From positions 1-62,677 of the IMG/VR virus record IMGVR_UViG_3300021339_000001: a DNA stretch of 62,677 nucleotides, one strand, 5' to 3'. How positions within the stretch are numbered: position 1 is the first letter of the stretch; the number at the start of each line of letters is the position of its first letter. Shown piece after piece: positions 22,886 through 62,583 of this stretch. Made by a program: the position numbers and the translations under genes. The notes under the pieces are model-generated. The model was not told where the DNA came from. It did not search any database and was given only the letters and a program-made list of their open reading frames with translations. Origin of the DNA: a virus.

Positions 22886-22920
22886 GAAAACGACGCGGGT
22901 GCCGGTGGCGCCCGCGTCGT
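22886..22920 (-). terminator. Intrinsic terminator downstream of 22936..23649
   Basis: 10-bp stem acgacgcggg / cccgcgtcgt, followed on the minus strand by tttt. Confidence 0.65.
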
Positions 22921-22935
22921 TGGTTTTCGAATTGA

Positions 22936-26594: not shown

Positions 26595-26649
26595 GTAGGT
26601 GCCAGATCGAACGATATGGTGTCCAACGCGTCCGTTCAGCCGAACGTCA

Positions 26650-26681
26650 AAGGACGCCGCTGTGGACTCAGCGGCGTCCTT
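26650..26681 (-). terminator. 13-bp hairpin 18 nt downstream of 26699..27295 (weak U-tract)
   Basis: Stem aaggacgccgctg / cagcggcgtcctt. Confidence 0.5.
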
Positions 26682-26698
26682 GGTGTCACGACGTTCGG

Positions 26699-27295
26699 CT
26701 AGCTGGGGTCCGACGCGTCCGGCGTCGGCGCGGGCACTGGCGTCGCCGCGATCAGTTCGCGAAGAGCGACGTTGTAGGCCTCGCGCTCTTCGTCGGTCGT
26801 TCGCTTGCCGCCACGTTCGATTCGATACACCTTCGACGTGGTACTGCCCATCGCGGTCGCCAGCGCGGCGCGTGAGATGTTGGCGTTGGTGCGCGTTCGC
26901 TCCAGGTCGCTCAGCTCGTCGGGCGCCTCGGTCGTGGCGTTCTGATTCCTTGCCATGGTTGATCCTTCCGGTTGATTTGGGTCAACGCTATCAGGACCCG
27001 GGATATTGTCGTTGTGAATCCAAACACGAGCCTGCTCGCCAGTTCGCTCGCTTGTGACGAACGTCGGTGTCCACTTGTAGCTCGTAACCGGTAGTGAAAG
27101 ACCAGCTTGGGTACACAATGTGACGGTGTCGTACGCGTGACCATTCAGTGGTCCACCCTGGAAGAAGTTCAGCATCGGGTATGCTCCTTGGAACCAGTCA
27201 TGCGTCGGACGGAGACAGACGCTACACACCCACCACTCATGTTCACTCGTACCAACGTTTCGGAAGCCTTGGCGTTGACTGCATGTGCAATACAT
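26699..27295 (-). CDS. Protein with Cys-rich N-terminal half and C-terminal XRE-type HTH
   Basis: HTH segment ISRAALATAMGSTTSKVYRIERG. Start MYCTCS follows the upstream stop by 2 nt (TGAtcATG). An internal RBS plus ATG (MARNQN) could also yield a short HTH-only product. Confidence 0.65.
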   Translation of the reverse strand: MYCTCSQRQGFRNVGTSEHEWWVCSVCLRPTHDWFQGAYPMLNFFQGGPLNGHAYDTVTLCTQAGLSLPVTSYKWTPTFVTSERTGEQARVWIHNDNIPGPDSVDPNQPEGSTMARNQNATTEAPDELSDLERTRTNANISRAALATAMGSTTSKVYRIERGGKRTTDEEREAYNVALRELIAATPVPAPTPDASDPS

Positions 27296-45121: not shown

Positions 45122-45955
45122 CTAGTTGACGACGCGAGGAAACTGCTCGCTTTCCTTGAGCACGAGAGTCTGGATCTCGCGATCAGAGACGTACGCGTTC
45201 CACGCCTTGATGATCAACCCGAGCTGGTGAAGACGGGCGTTGCTACGACGTCGGTTCTGGCCGAGGCCGATGCGAAGAACGTGTCGCCGAGGGTCGTGGA
45301 TGCTGAGACCGGCGCCACTCTCGACGCCACTCCAGAAGTCCATCCAGCGCTGACTACCGCGCGTGAGGTAGATCGCCGCGCAGACGACCGACTGGGCTAG
45401 CTGGCACTGCTTGCCGACGCGCATCGCCTGCGCGACGTAGTCACCAAGGTCGGGACGCTTCTCCAGCTCGTGAAGGACGGTGAGGTTCGTCATGCCGCCG
45501 CGAACGGCACGTGCCGTCTTGCCCGCGATTCGGTCTTCATACTGCACGATCATGCGAACGGCGGCGGTGATCGCGATGCTGTTCTCGCCGCCCGTCATGG
45601 TTAGGTAGTCGTTGATCGACCTGGGTCGTCCGGCGTCGATTGTCGGCACCATGTCCAACGGGACGTTGTATGCCACGGTGAACTCGATCGTGCAGCCCGA
45701 TGCGATCACCGCGTACAGGCGATGCTGTCCGTCGACGAGCTTGCCGTCGGGCGACATCTTGATGGTCTCGCCGTTGTTGACCCACCCGCCGGACAGCATG
45801 TCTTCGGTGTACGCCGTGACGCGCGCCTTGTTCACCCGACGATTCGCGATCATGTTCTCGAGCATGTACGTCGCGAGCTGCGGGTCGATCTTCTCGTTCC
45901 TAGTTTCCACCTCAGGCAGCAACTCCACCTTGGGTGACTTGGCTCTCGTTACCAT
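45122..45955 (-). CDS. ParB-like nuclease-domain protein
   Basis: KLVDGQHRLYAV motif. Trimmed to MVTRAK because the longer start lies upstream of the predicted TSS. Confidence 0.65.
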   Translation of the reverse strand: MVTRAKSPKVELLPEVETRNEKIDPQLATYMLENMIANRRVNKARVTAYTEDMLSGGWVNNGETIKMSPDGKLVDGQHRLYAVIASGCTIEFTVAYNVPLDMVPTIDAGRPRSINDYLTMTGGENSIAITAAVRMIVQYEDRIAGKTARAVRGGMTNLTVLHELEKRPDLGDYVAQAMRVGKQCQLAQSVVCAAIYLTRGSQRWMDFWSGVESGAGLSIHDPRRHVLRIGLGQNRRRSNARLHQLGLIIKAWNAYVSDREIQTLVLKESEQFPRVVN

Positions 45956-45998
45956 GTCATGTCCGTTCGTCGTAGTCAGTAGGCAGTTATGTCGATCG

Positions 45999-46029
45999 GG
46001 GTGCGGTGGCGTCGGTCGCGCCACCGCAC
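45999..46029. other. Perfect 12-bp GC hairpin in the leader of the ParB-like gene
   Basis: Stem ggtgcggtggcg / cgccaccgcacc with a 7-nt loop. Confidence 0.7.
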
Positions 46030-46043
46030 CTCGATCAACTGAC

Positions 46044-46073
46044 ACGCTAATCGTCGATGCCGACGATTGTCAA
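46044..46073 (-). promoter_or_regulatory. Early promoter P7 (TTGACA-N18-TAGCGT) with an 8-bp-arm palindrome in the spacer
   Basis: Plus strand reads acgcta...tgtcaa. Palindrome aatcgtcg-atgc-cgacgatt spans 46049..46068. Confidence 0.65.
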
Positions 46074-48950: not shown

Positions 48951-49124
48951 TCAGGTGGTGGCAACCGACTCGACCTCAGCGACGTGGAACGTGCGCTGAA
49001 CGCCCGCGCCGTCGAGACCGACGAAGAACCCGTCGCCGTCGGGCGAGGTGGTGGCGGTGCAGCCGATGTCGTCCATCGTGCTGAAGACCGACAGCGCTTC
49101 GATAGTGTTCTCGTCCTCGTACAT
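48951..49124 (-). CDS. Hypothetical protein (57 aa)
   Basis: Hand translation MYEDENTIEALSVFSTMDDIGC...; acggagga RBS. The two track ORFs in other frames are Arg-rich artefacts. Confidence 0.5.
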   Translation of the reverse strand: MYEDENTIEALSVFSTMDDIGCTATTSPDGDGFFVGLDGAGVQRTFHVAEVESVATT

Positions 49125-49305
49125 GGTGTCCTCCGTCGATTTCGTCGTCGTTCATCAAAGGGTTCAACCAACGGGGAGCCTCTTGGTCACCCGATCTTCC
49201 TGACGGGAAGGGATCGAGCCCGACCTGGTCGGTGAGCCCCCGTGGGGACGCCTACCAAGAGGTACCTCGCTGGTCGAACGTTGTTGCGTTTGCCTGACGA
49301 GACGA
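49125..49305 (-). ncRNA. Unusually long (~175 nt) structured 5' leader or embedded small RNA
   Basis: All sister promoters have 26-45 nt leaders. This one contains a 9-bp long-range helix cctcttggt / accaagagg enclosing at least three hairpins. Confidence 0.45.
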
Positions 49306-49334
49306 ACGTTAGCCTGAGTTGTGAAACATGTCAA
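49306..49334 (-). promoter_or_regulatory. Early promoter P9 (TTGACA-N17-TAACGT)
   Basis: Plus strand reads acgtta-N17-tgtcaa. Confidence 0.7.
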
Positions 49335-49534
49335 ACCCGCAGATACAGGCCCGTGACGAGACGATCTGCGCGCGTCGCGAGCAGTCCGACTGACGCCAAC
49401 GCGTCGGCGTAGCTGTCGGCTTCCACGGTGATCCGGTGGTGAGCGGTCTGCGCGCCGTACAAACGCAGCGCGACGATTCCTAACTTCAAGTCATCATGCG
49501 TCGAGACGGTCACGTCGAAGATGAAGACAGTCAT
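49331..49534 (-). CDS. Hypothetical protein (67 aa)
   Basis: ORF trimmed to MTVFIFDV, ATGA-coupled to the upstream stop. Confidence 0.55.
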   Translation of the reverse strand: MTVFIFDVTVSTHDDLKLGIVALRLYGAQTAHHRITVEADSYADALASVGLLATRADRLVTGLYLRV

Positions 49535-49785: not shown

Positions 49786-49933
49786 ATGATCACCGTCACT
49801 TCGTCGTCGTGGTCGAAACTACGCTGGTGGAACGGATCGACGGCTGCGATTCCGTCGATCCGCCGCTCCACCAACCCACCTAGGTCAACCAAGAACCGGA
49901 GGCCAACGCTGTGAACGAAAACTCCCCGGTCGA

Positions 49934-52276
49934 ATGAGCGACCACCAGGATAATATCAGGTTAGGCGACGCACTTCCTGACCCGGCGCATTTCCTATCTT
50001 ACGCGCTGTATCACGCGTCTCGCGATATCGCGGTCTTCCCACTGACGCGCAACGGCCGACAGCCTGCGATCCGTCGCTACTTCGAGCGCGCAACGTCGGA
50101 CGCGGACGCCATCCACGGGTGGTGGGGACCCAGTGGCTCGCACGTCGGCTGCAACGTCGGGATCGCGACCGGCGCGGAGATCGCGACCGGTCAACCGGTC
50201 TGGTGCCTGGACGTCGACAACAAACACGGGCACAACGGCGACGCGGCGCTGCGTCAACTCGAGGACGAACTCGGTGCGCCGCTGCCTGCGACGTACGCCG
50301 AAGATACGCCGAACGGTGGTCGTCACCTGCTGTTCCGCTGGCCGGCCGGTCGGGAGGTCAAGTCCTCCGGCGGTGAACTCGGCGACGGACTGGACGTCCG
50401 CGGTTATCGCGGCGTCGTGTTCGCCGCCGGTTCGGTCGTCGATGGCCGCGCGTACGTCGTCAGCGCGAACCTGCCGATCGCCGACGCGCCGGACGCGCTC
50501 GTCGACCTGGTGGAGCGACGGACCCGCGAGTACGCCGTGGACGGCGTCGTACGCGAGCTCGCGGATGGCGAACACCGTCGCGTCGTCGCGTACGGCGAGA
50601 ACGCGCGTCGCGCGGCCTGCGAGCGACTGGCGAACGCGCAGCCCGGCGAGCAGAACAACGAGCTCTTCAAGTTCGCCCGGCAGATGTCCGAACTAGGTCA
50701 GCACGGTCTGTTCACTCGGTACGAGATCTGGTGCGACGCCACGGAGGCGATGACCGAGAACGGCTACCTGCTGGATGATCCCGGTGGCTCGTTTGAGCGC
50801 ACGTTCAACTCCGGTTGGGATAACGCCGAACCGCGCGCGCCGTGGCCGCCGTGGCCGTCCGATGCTGCACGAATCGAATCAGGTGAGATCGAGGTGTGGC
50901 CCCCACCGCAACGTCCGGTGCTCGTCGCTCGTGAGTTGATCGCACGCTGGAGCGATGCGACCGACTGGCTGCTCAGACGTCGGTGGCGGCAGTGGTGGCT
51001 GCGCTACGACGAGGTCGCGCATCGCTGGATCAAGGAAGAGAACGATAAGATCATCTCTAACTCGGTGTGGACGTCACTCGAGCACGCCGTGTACGGGCCG
51101 GAGCGTCGTGACTGGAACCCGTCCATTAAGAACGTCGCCAACGTCGTCAGCGCGTTCGAGTCGTTCGCGTCGTTGTCGTGGCATCAAGAGTCGCATACGT
51201 GGATCGAGCAACCCGACGGCTACCCACCAGCCGAGTCGATGATCGTCGTCAAGAACGGGCAGTTGCACCTGCCGAGTCGCTCGATCTGGCCGCACGATCC
51301 GCGACTCTTCAACCACGTGTCACTGCCGTTCGACTACGACCCGCAGGCACCCGCGCCGAGTCGGTGGTTGCGGTTCTTGAACGAACTCTGGCCCGACGAT
51401 CCCGTGCAGCAACTGATGCTTCAGGAGATGTTCGGCTACATCATCTCGGGGCGAACCGACCTGCAGAAGATCATGTTGTTGATCGGTCGACCACGATCGG
51501 GTAAGGGAACGATCTCGTGGGTCCTGCGGCAACTGCTCGGCTCCGCGGTCGCCGCACCGAGCATGGGCTCGCTCCGCACGCAGTTCGGCCTCCAGGATCT
51601 ACTTGATAAGTCGCTGGCCATCATCGGTGACGCGCGTATCTCAGGTGACACACAACCGCTGATCGAGCGACTGCTGACCATCTCGGGTGAGGACATCGTC
51701 ACGGTCGATCGTAAGAATAGGTCGCCTCTCAGCGTCGTGCTGACCGCGCGCTTCTTGATCTTGACCAACGAGGAGCCGGTGCTCCGCGACGCGTCGGGCG
51801 CGATGGCCAGTCGGTTCGTGCCGCTGCGGCTGCGTCAGTCCTTCCTGGGGCACGAGGATCTACGACTGAAGGCGACGCTGCGACCGGAGCTGCCCGGCAT
51901 CTTGACGTGGGCGCTGGACGGCCTGGATCGACTGCTCGCGCAGGGGTCGTTCACGTTGTCAGAGACGTCGAACGAGTTGATCGCCGACATGACCGATTCA
52001 GGAAGTCCGATCGGCGCGTTCGTCCGCGAGTGCTGCGTGCTGGGCGGTCAGCATGAGGTACCGCGAGACAAGTTGTACGACGCCTGGCGGAACTGGGCGA
52101 TCCGCAACGACGTTCCGCCCAGCGACAACGCGCGATTTGGGCGGAACCTGCGTACGGTCGCCGACGTGCGAACCCTCCGTCGGGGACCGGCCGGTTCTCA
52201 GGTTTACCACCATGGTGGGATCGACCTGACCGACGAGTATCAGGCACCCACCTGGAACTTCACAGTTCCCGGCTAA
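49934..52276 (+). CDS. Bifunctional primase-polymerase / D5-P4-type helicase
   Basis: 780 aa. N-terminal prim-pol motifs (CLDVDNKHG, GGRHLLF) and C-terminal Walker A GRPRSGKGT. Confidence 0.85.
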   Translation: MSDHQDNIRLGDALPDPAHFLSYALYHASRDIAVFPLTRNGRQPAIRRYFERATSDADAIHGWWGPSGSHVGCNVGIATGAEIATGQPVWCLDVDNKHGHNGDAALRQLEDELGAPLPATYAEDTPNGGRHLLFRWPAGREVKSSGGELGDGLDVRGYRGVVFAAGSVVDGRAYVVSANLPIADAPDALVDLVERRTREYAVDGVVRELADGEHRRVVAYGENARRAACERLANAQPGEQNNELFKFARQMSELGQHGLFTRYEIWCDATEAMTENGYLLDDPGGSFERTFNSGWDNAEPRAPWPPWPSDAARIESGEIEVWPPPQRPVLVARELIARWSDATDWLLRRRWRQWWLRYDEVAHRWIKEENDKIISNSVWTSLEHAVYGPERRDWNPSIKNVANVVSAFESFASLSWHQESHTWIEQPDGYPPAESMIVVKNGQLHLPSRSIWPHDPRLFNHVSLPFDYDPQAPAPSRWLRFLNELWPDDPVQQLMLQEMFGYIISGRTDLQKIMLLIGRPRSGKGTISWVLRQLLGSAVAAPSMGSLRTQFGLQDLLDKSLAIIGDARISGDTQPLIERLLTISGEDIVTVDRKNRSPLSVVLTARFLILTNEEPVLRDASGAMASRFVPLRLRQSFLGHEDLRLKATLRPELPGILTWALDGLDRLLAQGSFTLSETSNELIADMTDSGSPIGAFVRECCVLGGQHEVPRDKLYDAWRNWAIRNDVPPSDNARFGRNLRTVADVRTLRRGPAGSQVYHHGGIDLTDEYQAPTWNFTVPG

Positions 52277-62538: not shown

Positions 62539-62583
62539 CCTCGTGGGGGACCGGCTTCCCCCTGTTGACGGTCCCCCACGAGG
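62539..62583 (+). other. Perfect 12-bp stem-loop whose loop holds the -35 of the ncRNA promoter and the window junction
   Basis: Stem cctcgtggggga / tcccccacgagg, 21-nt loop. Confidence 0.7.

What the first reader, a model, noticed from the sequence alone, without database searches (positions are those of the whole stretch)
49125..49305. One early promoter drives a ~175-nt highly structured leader instead of the usual ~35-nt leader
Downstream of P9, the minus-strand RNA contains a 9-bp closing helix (cctcttggt/accaagagg). This helix encloses hairpins cccc-acg-gggg, ccgac-cag-gtcgg and cttcc-cgtca-ggaag. Then comes the conserved cgacgacgaa...ggagga RBS of a 57-aa ORF.

The element looks like a ~130-nt insertion into an otherwise standard promoter-leader cassette. 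It could be a riboswitch-like or attenuator element, a processed small RNA, or a miniature mobile element. I could not match it to any riboswitch class by eye.
Basis: seen in the sequence. Interest (0 to 1): 0.6.

Follow-up and report, generated by a model that had tools for sequence, protein, structure and literature searches.

The report
Orphan branched hairpin in phage leader
One early promoter of an uncultured actinobacteria-type phage is followed by a very stable, branched 118-base RNA fold before the ribosome site. The fold is real, but it matches nothing known and has no relatives, so its role (most likely an RNA cutting or stabilising signal) remains an inference.

Summary
Observation confirmed. 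Promoter P9 (-35 at 49334-49329, -10 at 49311-49306, minus strand) shares 23 bases with sister promoter P6. It then carries 142 extra bases (49291-49150) before the usual start-associated motif, the RBS and the ATG at 49124.

Inside this segment, 118 nt (49279-49162) fold into a 12+2+9 bp rod capped by a four-way junction with three hairpins. The fold has dG -65.5 and z -4.9. It is the best-folding 120-nt window on that strand, and its arms are the longest inverted repeat in the 62.7-kb genome.

P9 is not unique. The second-longest inverted repeat sits in the same place behind promoter P7.

No Rfam family, tRNA, terminator scan, second copy or homologue turned up in the phage, plasmid, viral, genome or metagenome collections, or with a covariance model. 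The phage has no close relatives (primase at most 47% identical; the downstream 57-aa ORF is an orphan), so covariation cannot be tested.

The RBS is not sequestered and there is no competing terminator, which argues against a riboswitch.

My best guess (about 0.3) is a T7-style "promoter, then double-stranded processing/stability hairpin" module. Rivals are an attenuator, an antitermination RNA, a protein-binding site and an inert insertion. Interest is modest.

The parts
49329..49334 (-). -35 hexamer TTGACA of promoter P9. Its TGA is also the stop codon of the upstream 67-aa ORF.
49306..49311 (-). -10 hexamer TAACGT, 17-nt spacer. The inferred start site is near 49298 (not mapped).
   Evidence: start site inferred from the usual 6-8 nt distance
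49292..49314 (-). 23-nt block shared with promoter P6 (28404-28381). BLAST aligned 24 nt with one mismatch, 96% identity.
49150..49291 (-). 142-nt segment present in P9 and absent from the P6 cassette. It consists of a 12-nt A/C-rich single strand, the folded element and a 12-nt tail (CCTTTGATGAAC).
49162..49279 (-). 118-nt folded element: a rod plus a four-way junction.
49268..49279 (-). Outer helix, 5' strand (12 bp with 49162-49173, two G-U pairs). An A/C mismatch and a 2-bp step follow.
49254..49262 (-). 9-bp closing helix, 5' strand (CCTCTTGGT).
49236..49249 (-).
49220..49232 (-). Hairpin 2: 5 bp with a CAG loop.
49189..49219 (-). Hairpin 3: 8 bp, a CC bulge, 4 bp, and a CGTCA loop.
49179..49187 (-). 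9-bp closing helix, 3' strand (ACCAAGAGG).
49162..49173 (-). Outer helix, 3' strand.
49129..49149 (-). Start-associated leader motif ending in the GGAGGA ribosome-binding site.
48951..49124 (-). 57-aa ORF (GC3 0.89) with no homologue in 5.8 billion proteins.

Best explanation
The element is a self-contained, cis-acting RNA domain in the 5' leader of the P9 transcript. It would also be present in any read-through RNA from the two small genes upstream.

Its roughly 26-position, near-continuous double helix (12 bp, A/C mismatch, 2 bp, 2x2 loop, 9 bp) most likely acts as a double-strand processing and stability signal of the kind phage T7 places between a promoter and the next RBS. In this reading a host RNase III-type enzyme cuts the rod. 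The cut uncouples the downstream message from upstream RNA, gives transcripts from both sources the same 5' end, and leaves a protective hairpin on the upstream RNA. The branched cap may be released as a small stable by-product.

Shown here: the fold, its exceptional stability, its position, and the parallel rod behind P7. Inferred: transcription from P9, any cleavage, and any effect on expression.
For: - Position: the element lies between a consensus promoter and a free RBS, in an intergenic gap of a 27-kb leftward gene arm.
- Helix size: the helix spans more than two turns and carries small internal loops. These are the features named as the main reactivity epitopes of bacterial RNase III substrates, with single-strand cuts leaving protective 3' hairpins (PMC1540722).
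- Independent domain: SD and AUG accessibility hardly change with or without the element.
- Sense-strand bias: the fold is better on the sense strand (-65.5 vs -57.8 kcal/mol, five G-U pairs).
- Parallel case: the two longest inverted repeats of the genome both lie just after consensus promoters, P9 and P7, and just before the start-associated motif.
- From my own knowledge, not checked here: T7 pairs promoters with RNase III sites of the same name (1.1, 1.3, 3.8, 4.7, 6.5, 13).
Against: - There is no experimental or comparative evidence at all. The element is an orphan, so nothing shows selection on the fold.
- An RNase III site needs no four-way junction cap.
- Only two or three of the many intergenic gaps carry such rods.
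- The host, and therefore its RNase III specificity, is unknown.
- Stability plus position fit several other roles equally well.
Confidence: 0.3

Rival explanations
1. Attenuator or leaky intrinsic terminator. The rod followed by a short U run stops part of the transcription arriving from upstream and from P9, setting or gating expression of the genes below. A phage factor might relieve this later.
For: A very stable helix is followed directly by CCUUUGAU. It sits at the end of the upstream two-gene unit. A terminator-like hairpin elsewhere in the arm has a similar CCUUUGA tail.
Against: It lies downstream of P9's own start, so it would abort the transcripts the promoter makes. There are only 3 U's after the stem, and the terminator scan did not flag it. 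A branched 118-nt fold is unlike the simple GC hairpins at 26650-26681 and 22889-22921. From my own knowledge, mycobacterial RNA polymerase is reported to need a U-tract.
Confidence: 0.15
2. Binding site for a phage- or host-encoded protein. This could be an RNA-level translational or stability operator, or a DNA-level operator or roadblock on the inverted repeat. A related site would lie behind P7.
For: The two longest inverted repeats lie in equivalent positions behind P9 and P7. Both rods contain the same local motif: CGAGGU opposite CCCCG, with an A/C mismatch.
Against: CGAGGT is a common hexamer in this genome, with 61 copies, so the shared motif is probably chance. No RNA-binding or regulator domain was recognised in the neighbouring genes. 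The 66-nt spacing of the arms is unlike any usual operator.
Confidence: 0.15
3. Functionless insertion. This would be a remnant of a small mobile element or a recombination or duplication scar that landed between the promoter and the RBS and is tolerated.
For: It looks like a clean 142-nt addition to the P6-type cassette. It has 26-nt imperfect terminal inverted repeats, and AACG is present at both borders. Its GC content (0.64-0.65) is above the genome mean of 0.598.
Against: It is single-copy in the genome. There is no copy in phages, plasmids, IMG/VR, 185k species genomes (one 18-mer) or JGI metagenomes (terminal-repeat pattern), nor in 151 Mycobacteriales genomes searched by covariance model. 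A 4-nt direct repeat is not evidence in this repeat-rich leader. Sense-strand G-U pairs favour an RNA-level fold, but only weakly (5 against 2).
Confidence: 0.15
4. Cis-acting processive antitermination RNA (HK022 put-like, or a nut/boxA-type site). It would make polymerase starting at the first consensus promoter of the 27-kb leftward arm resistant to downstream terminators.
For: It sits immediately downstream of the first consensus promoter of the arm. The arm contains at least one terminator-like hairpin. The tail after the rod loosely resembles the actinobacterial rrn boxA that I extracted from five genomes.
Against: The boxA resemblance needs two indels. An ungapped search for the actinobacterial boxA finds nothing here and only chance-level hits genome-wide. 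Part of the resemblance lies inside the helix. Eight more promoters punctuate the arm, so read-through is not obviously needed. The architecture is unlike the two-hairpin put RNA (from my own knowledge).
Confidence: 0.08
5. Riboswitch or other ligand-sensing aptamer controlling the 57-aa gene.
For: It is a compact multi-helix junction in a 5' leader.
Against: There is no Rfam match at E<=10. There is no expression platform: the RBS is not sequestered and no competing terminator exists. The junction strands are 4, 3, 0 and 1 nt and the loops 3-5 nt, leaving little room for a pocket. The downstream genes are orphans with no metabolic link.
Confidence: 0.04

Closest known systems
RNase III processing sites of phage T7 transcripts (R1.1, R1.3 and others), several of which lie just after a promoter and before the next gene
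   Same: Order of promoter, long interrupted double helix, free RBS, gene within a polycistronic arm. The helix spans about two turns or more with small internal loops. A second such rod lies behind another promoter (P7).
   Different: T7 sites are simple hairpins of about 50-60 nt, whereas this one is capped by a four-way junction with three hairpins. There is no sequence similarity and no cleavage data. The host is an unknown actinobacterium, not E. coli.
Extended start-associated sequences (ESAS) of Cluster K mycobacteriophages (PMC3203893)
   Same: An actinophage with a conserved start-associated motif at many genes (11 sites here). A subset of these sites have an imperfect inverted repeat directly upstream. 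Function is unknown in both cases.
   Different: ESAS are 17-bp arms with a 4-13 bp spacer, present in many copies with a consensus. Here there are two unrelated rods, and P9's arms are 26 nt with 66 nt between them. There is no sequence similarity to the Cluster K motifs.
Antitermination RNAs in phage early leaders (lambda nut boxA/boxB; HK022 put)
   Same: Position just downstream of the first early promoter of a long transcription unit.
   Different: There is no acceptable boxA and no put-like two-hairpin layout. Many internal promoters make read-through unnecessary.
   Same: A four-way junction standing on a long stem.
   Different: ARAGORN and Rfam find no tRNA or YrlA here. The loops are 3-5 nt, so there is no T-loop or D-loop, and the arm lengths (5, 5 and 12 bp) do not fit a cloverleaf.

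Membership tests
Any Rfam family (riboswitches, ribozymes, leaders, sRNAs) | Covariance-model score at or near the family's gathering threshold | tested here: not met
   Over the whole window at gathering threshold, only two tRNAs at 61.4-61.6 kb were found. At 49050-49400 with E<=10, there was one chance hammerhead hit of 13 bits on the wrong strand.
Riboswitch (generic) | An expression platform: alternative pairing that hides the RBS or forms a terminator | tested here: not met
   SD and AUG unpaired probabilities are similar with the element and in an in-silico deletion. The rod helices have pairing probability about 1, and no competing fold was found.
tRNA / tRNA-like element | Cloverleaf with 7-nt T and anticodon loops and a D-loop, detectable by ARAGORN or RF00005 | tested here: not met
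   Searches found no hit. The loops are 3-5 nt.
Intrinsic terminator | GC-rich hairpin followed directly by a U-rich tract | tested here: inconclusive
   The consensus scan did not flag it. The helix is very stable, but only 3 U's occur in the 8 nt after it.
RNase III processing site (T7 R-site type) | Quasi-continuous double helix of about two turns, often with an internal loop | tested here: met
   The predicted helix is 12 bp + 1x1 mismatch + 2 bp + 2x2 loop + 9 bp. The criteria are from PMC1540722.
RNase III processing site (T7 R-site type) | Actual site-specific cleavage by RNase III | not testable with these tools
   No transcript data exist for this uncultured phage.
MITE-like mobile element | Terminal inverted repeats | tested here: met
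   26-nt arms, 81% complementary.
MITE-like mobile element | Multiple copies in the same or other genomes | tested here: not met
   window; phages; plasmids; IMG/VR; species genomes, one 18-mer only; metagenomes, terminal-repeat pattern; covariance model.
MITE-like mobile element | Target-site duplication | tested here: inconclusive
   AACG occurs at both borders, but the motif is common in these leaders.
boxA/Nus antitermination site | Single-stranded boxA matching the host rrn boxA | tested here: not met
   The actinobacterial rrn boxA core was extracted from five genomes. The ungapped search with up to 3 mismatches gives chance-level counts and no hit in the P9 leader.
Cluster K ESAS | Repeated 17-bp inverted-repeat consensus with a 4-13 bp spacer upstream of the start-associated sequence | tested here: not met
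   The P9 and P7 rods do not share a consensus. The P9 spacer is 66 nt. The definition is from PMC3203893.

The most novel reading that the evidence does not exclude
The branched rod is the founding example of an undescribed class of cis-regulatory RNA in actinophage early leaders. One form would be an RNA that acts on the transcribing polymerase (put-like). Another would be an RNA recognised by an early phage protein, gating expression of the 27-kb leftward arm. The simpler rod behind P7 would be a second site of the same system.
Probability: 0.1. Interest if true: 0.6.

Novelty: new variant of a known kind. Interest (0 to 1): 0.25.

Why it matters
If the rod is a processing or stability signal, a T7-like 'start here, cut here' layout would exist in high-GC actinophages, where mRNA processing signals are almost unstudied. 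It would also give a compact part for tuning expression in actinobacteria.

As it stands, this is a single, unconserved, uncharacterised element in one metagenomic phage. Its main value is as a well-delimited candidate for a simple reporter test.

Tried and rejected
**RNA families and tRNA**
- Rfam at gathering threshold and at E<=10 found nothing. ARAGORN found nothing here.

**Second copy in the window**
- blastn-short and covariance model R1 with filters off found only the element itself, at 143 bits. The next hits are generic hairpins of 19 bits or less.

**DNA similarity searches**
- Phage collection: none.
- Plasmids: only chance fragments.

**Exact-pattern scans**
- IMG/VR with three different 21-26-mers of the element: 0 hits.
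- IMG/VR with the promoter pattern: 15 single, unrelated hits.
- 185k species genomes with one 18-mer: 17 hits, equal to my rough chance estimate, and mostly unrelated GC-rich palindromic hairpins.
- JGI metagenomes with the terminal-repeat pattern: 14 hits, all unrelated coding sequence or long palindromes.

**Covariance model R1 on other genomes**
- 151 Mycobacteriales genomes: best hit 32 bits, a plain hairpin lacking two of the three arms.
- The five nearest cultured phages (Gordonia Suzy, GOATification and LittleFella; Mycobacterium MrMiyagi; Micrococcus Kurnik; about 55% capsid/terminase identity) have no match and lack the promoter motif.

**Relatives through neighbouring proteins**
- 57-aa ORF: orphan.
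- 133-aa ORF: at most 51% identity to any hit; the top-scoring hit is 44%.
- Primase: at most 47% identity.

**Ideas considered and dropped**
- CRISPR-repeat mimic: no array was found with the hairpin-1 18-mer.
- boxA.
- Shared CGAGGU motif as a protein site: it is a common hexamer.
- Leader peptide: only a 23-codon TTG frame inside the helix, without coding bias (my own reading). The codon-position GC plot also shows no coding signal across the element.

Full report
**What the window is.**
The window is a complete IMG/VR virus record of 62,677 bp with direct terminal repeats of about 127 bp and 59.8% GC. Capsid and terminase are about 55% identical to Gordonia (Terapinvirus, Lambovirus), Mycobacterium (Fowlmouthvirus) and Micrococcus phages, so an actinobacterial host is likely. 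Codon-position GC shows three arms: a rightward structural arm (0.8-22.4 kb), a leftward arm of about 27 kb (49.8 down to 22.9 kb), and a rightward replication arm starting with a primase-helicase at 49934.

**The observation.**
A family of promoters with TTGACA, a 17-nt spacer and a TANNGT -10 element recurs nine times on the minus strand, at 49334, 47913, 46073, 28423, 27792, 26367, 26097, 25858 and 23718. Six of them have 29-35 nt between the inferred start site and the start codon, and one has 19 nt.

P9 (49334) shares a 23-nt block (49314-49292) with P6; BLAST aligns 24 nt with one mismatch. In P6 the start-associated motif follows at once. In P9, 142 nt (49291-49150) intervene.

Within these 142 nt, the stretch 49279-49162 folds as follows:
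- a 12-bp helix with two G-U pairs;
- an A/C mismatch, then 2 bp;
- a 2x2 internal loop;
- a four-way junction bearing hairpins of 5 bp (4-nt loop), 5 bp (3-nt loop) and 8+4 bp (CC bulge, 5-nt loop).

The junction strands are 4, 3, 0 and 1 nt long.

**Is it more than chance?**
Yes, on four counts:
- The 118-nt element folds at -65.5 kcal/mol against -45.4 +/- 4.1 for dinucleotide shuffles (z -4.95, 0 of 300 as good). The antisense strand reaches only -57.8.
- In a genome-wide sliding-window scan corrected for GC, it is the top window on the minus strand.
- Its arms are the longest inverted repeat in the genome (26 nt, 81% complementary, 66 nt apart).
- Helix pairing probabilities are about 1.

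The region shows no coding periodicity.

First, P9 is not unique. The second-longest inverted repeat (45991-46039, an 8+12 bp rod with an A/C mismatch) lies in the same position behind P7. It sits in a leader of about 83 nt before ATG 45955. A third rod (about 49823-49875) lies in the divergent gap at the head of the arm.

Second, the 'standard leader' is a start-associated motif (GACGAA, 1-3 nt, GACG, then the SD). It occurs at 11 sites, including sites without a consensus promoter from the family above (48944, 43643, 24508 and 61726 on the plus strand). Promoter and leader motif are therefore separate modules. 'Insertion into a cassette' is one reading; 'promoter placed ahead of an older intergenic structure' is another.

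**What it is not.**
- No Rfam family matches, even at E<=10, and there is no tRNA.
- The terminator scan does not flag it, and only three U's follow the stem.
- It has no riboswitch-type expression platform. SD and AUG accessibility are similar with and without the element, and nothing competes with the rod.
- There is no second copy in the genome by BLAST or by a covariance model built from the fold.
- There is no canonical boxA. I extracted the actinobacterial rrn boxA from five genomes. The tail after the rod resembles it only with two indels, and an ungapped search gives chance-level counts and no hit here.

**Search for relatives.**
Nothing was found.
- DNA similarity: phages and plasmids gave no real match.
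- Exact scans: IMG/VR with three element 21-26-mers gave 0 hits. Species genomes with an 18-mer gave 17 hits, equal to my rough chance estimate, and mostly unrelated GC-rich palindromes. Metagenomes with the terminal-repeat pattern gave 14 unrelated hits.
- Covariance model: 151 Mycobacteriales genomes gave a best hit of 32 bits, a plain hairpin. The five nearest cultured phages gave no match, and they also lack the promoter motif.
- Neighbouring proteins: the phage itself is isolated. The 57-aa ORF is an orphan among 5.8 billion proteins, the 133-aa ORF has at most 51% identity to any hit (the top-scoring hit is 44%), and the primase has at most 47%.

The covariation test is therefore impossible at present.

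**How it most likely works.**
The data show a rigid, independently folding RNA domain between a promoter and a free RBS, in an intergenic gap of a long polycistronic arm. A simpler counterpart sits behind a second promoter.

The closest known arrangement is T7's pairing of promoters with RNase III sites (my own knowledge). The rod meets the published structural criteria for bacterial RNase III substrates: about two helical turns, possibly by coaxial stacking, with internal loops that restrict cleavage and leave protective 3' hairpins (PMC1540722).

I therefore rank a processing and stability module first, at about 0.3. The rivals are:
- a leaky attenuator (0.15);
- a protein-binding site shared with P7 (0.15), although the shared CGAGGU motif is a common hexamer;
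- an inert insertion (0.15);
- a put- or nut-like antitermination RNA (0.08);
- a riboswitch (0.04).

The remainder is unassigned. All functional statements are inference, since no transcript data exist.

**Comparison and novelty.**
By layout the element works like a T7 R-site. It also recalls the inverted repeats upstream of start-associated sequences in Cluster K mycobacteriophages, whose function is likewise unknown (PMC3203893). It is a member of neither group, because there is no sequence relation, the cap is branched, and the repeat has no consensus.

Earlier notes of this scan describe promoter-plus-helix 'cut here' leaders and cloverleaf modules in other phages. These are parallels I could not test.

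My verdict is a real, unusually stable, orphan structured leader: a new variant of a known theme, of modest interest until a relative or an experiment appears.

Noticed in passing
window 45955-46073 (-): Promoter P7 has a leader of about 83 nt holding the genome's second-longest inverted repeat (45991-46039, an 8+12 bp rod with an A/C mismatch). The rod starts at about the inferred transcription start. The gene probably begins at ATG 45955, after the start-associated motif.
   Followed up: partly
window 49790-49935 (-): The divergent gap between the primase gene and the first leftward gene folds into a rod of about 30 bp (z -3.9). The rod overlaps a weak promoter-like -10 (TAGTTT) and a start-associated motif ahead of an 84-aa Cys-rich ORF (49785-49531). 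That ORF overlaps by ATGA a 67-aa ORF (49534-49331), whose stop lies inside P9's -35.
   Followed up: partly
window 26638-26700 (-): A two-tier hairpin (perfect 13-bp GC-rich inner stem plus a 13-bp outer stem) lies directly after a TAG stop and is followed by UUUGACGUU. It looks like a genuine terminator inside the leftward arm, just upstream of promoters P4 to P2.
   Followed up: partly
window, 11 sites (e.g. 48944, 43643, 28377, 26321, 24508 on the minus strand; 61726 on the plus strand): A start-associated motif (GACGAA, 1-3 nt, GACG, then the SD) precedes many early genes, with or without a promoter. It is comparable in concept to the SAS of Cluster K mycobacteriophages.
   Followed up: partly
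window 62539-62583 (+), repeated in the left terminal repeat (promoter at 15): A perfect 15-bp inverted repeat straddles the promoter-like site in the terminal repeat that heads the YrlA-like RNA region.
   Followed up: no
L061-L068 (rrn leaders of five Actinomycetes genomes): The rrn boxA/boxC stretch (UUUGAGAACUCAA core) is nearly invariant across Mycolicibacterium, Nesterenkonia, Actinoplanes and one further genome (G054). The phage has no canonical copy.
   Followed up: yes
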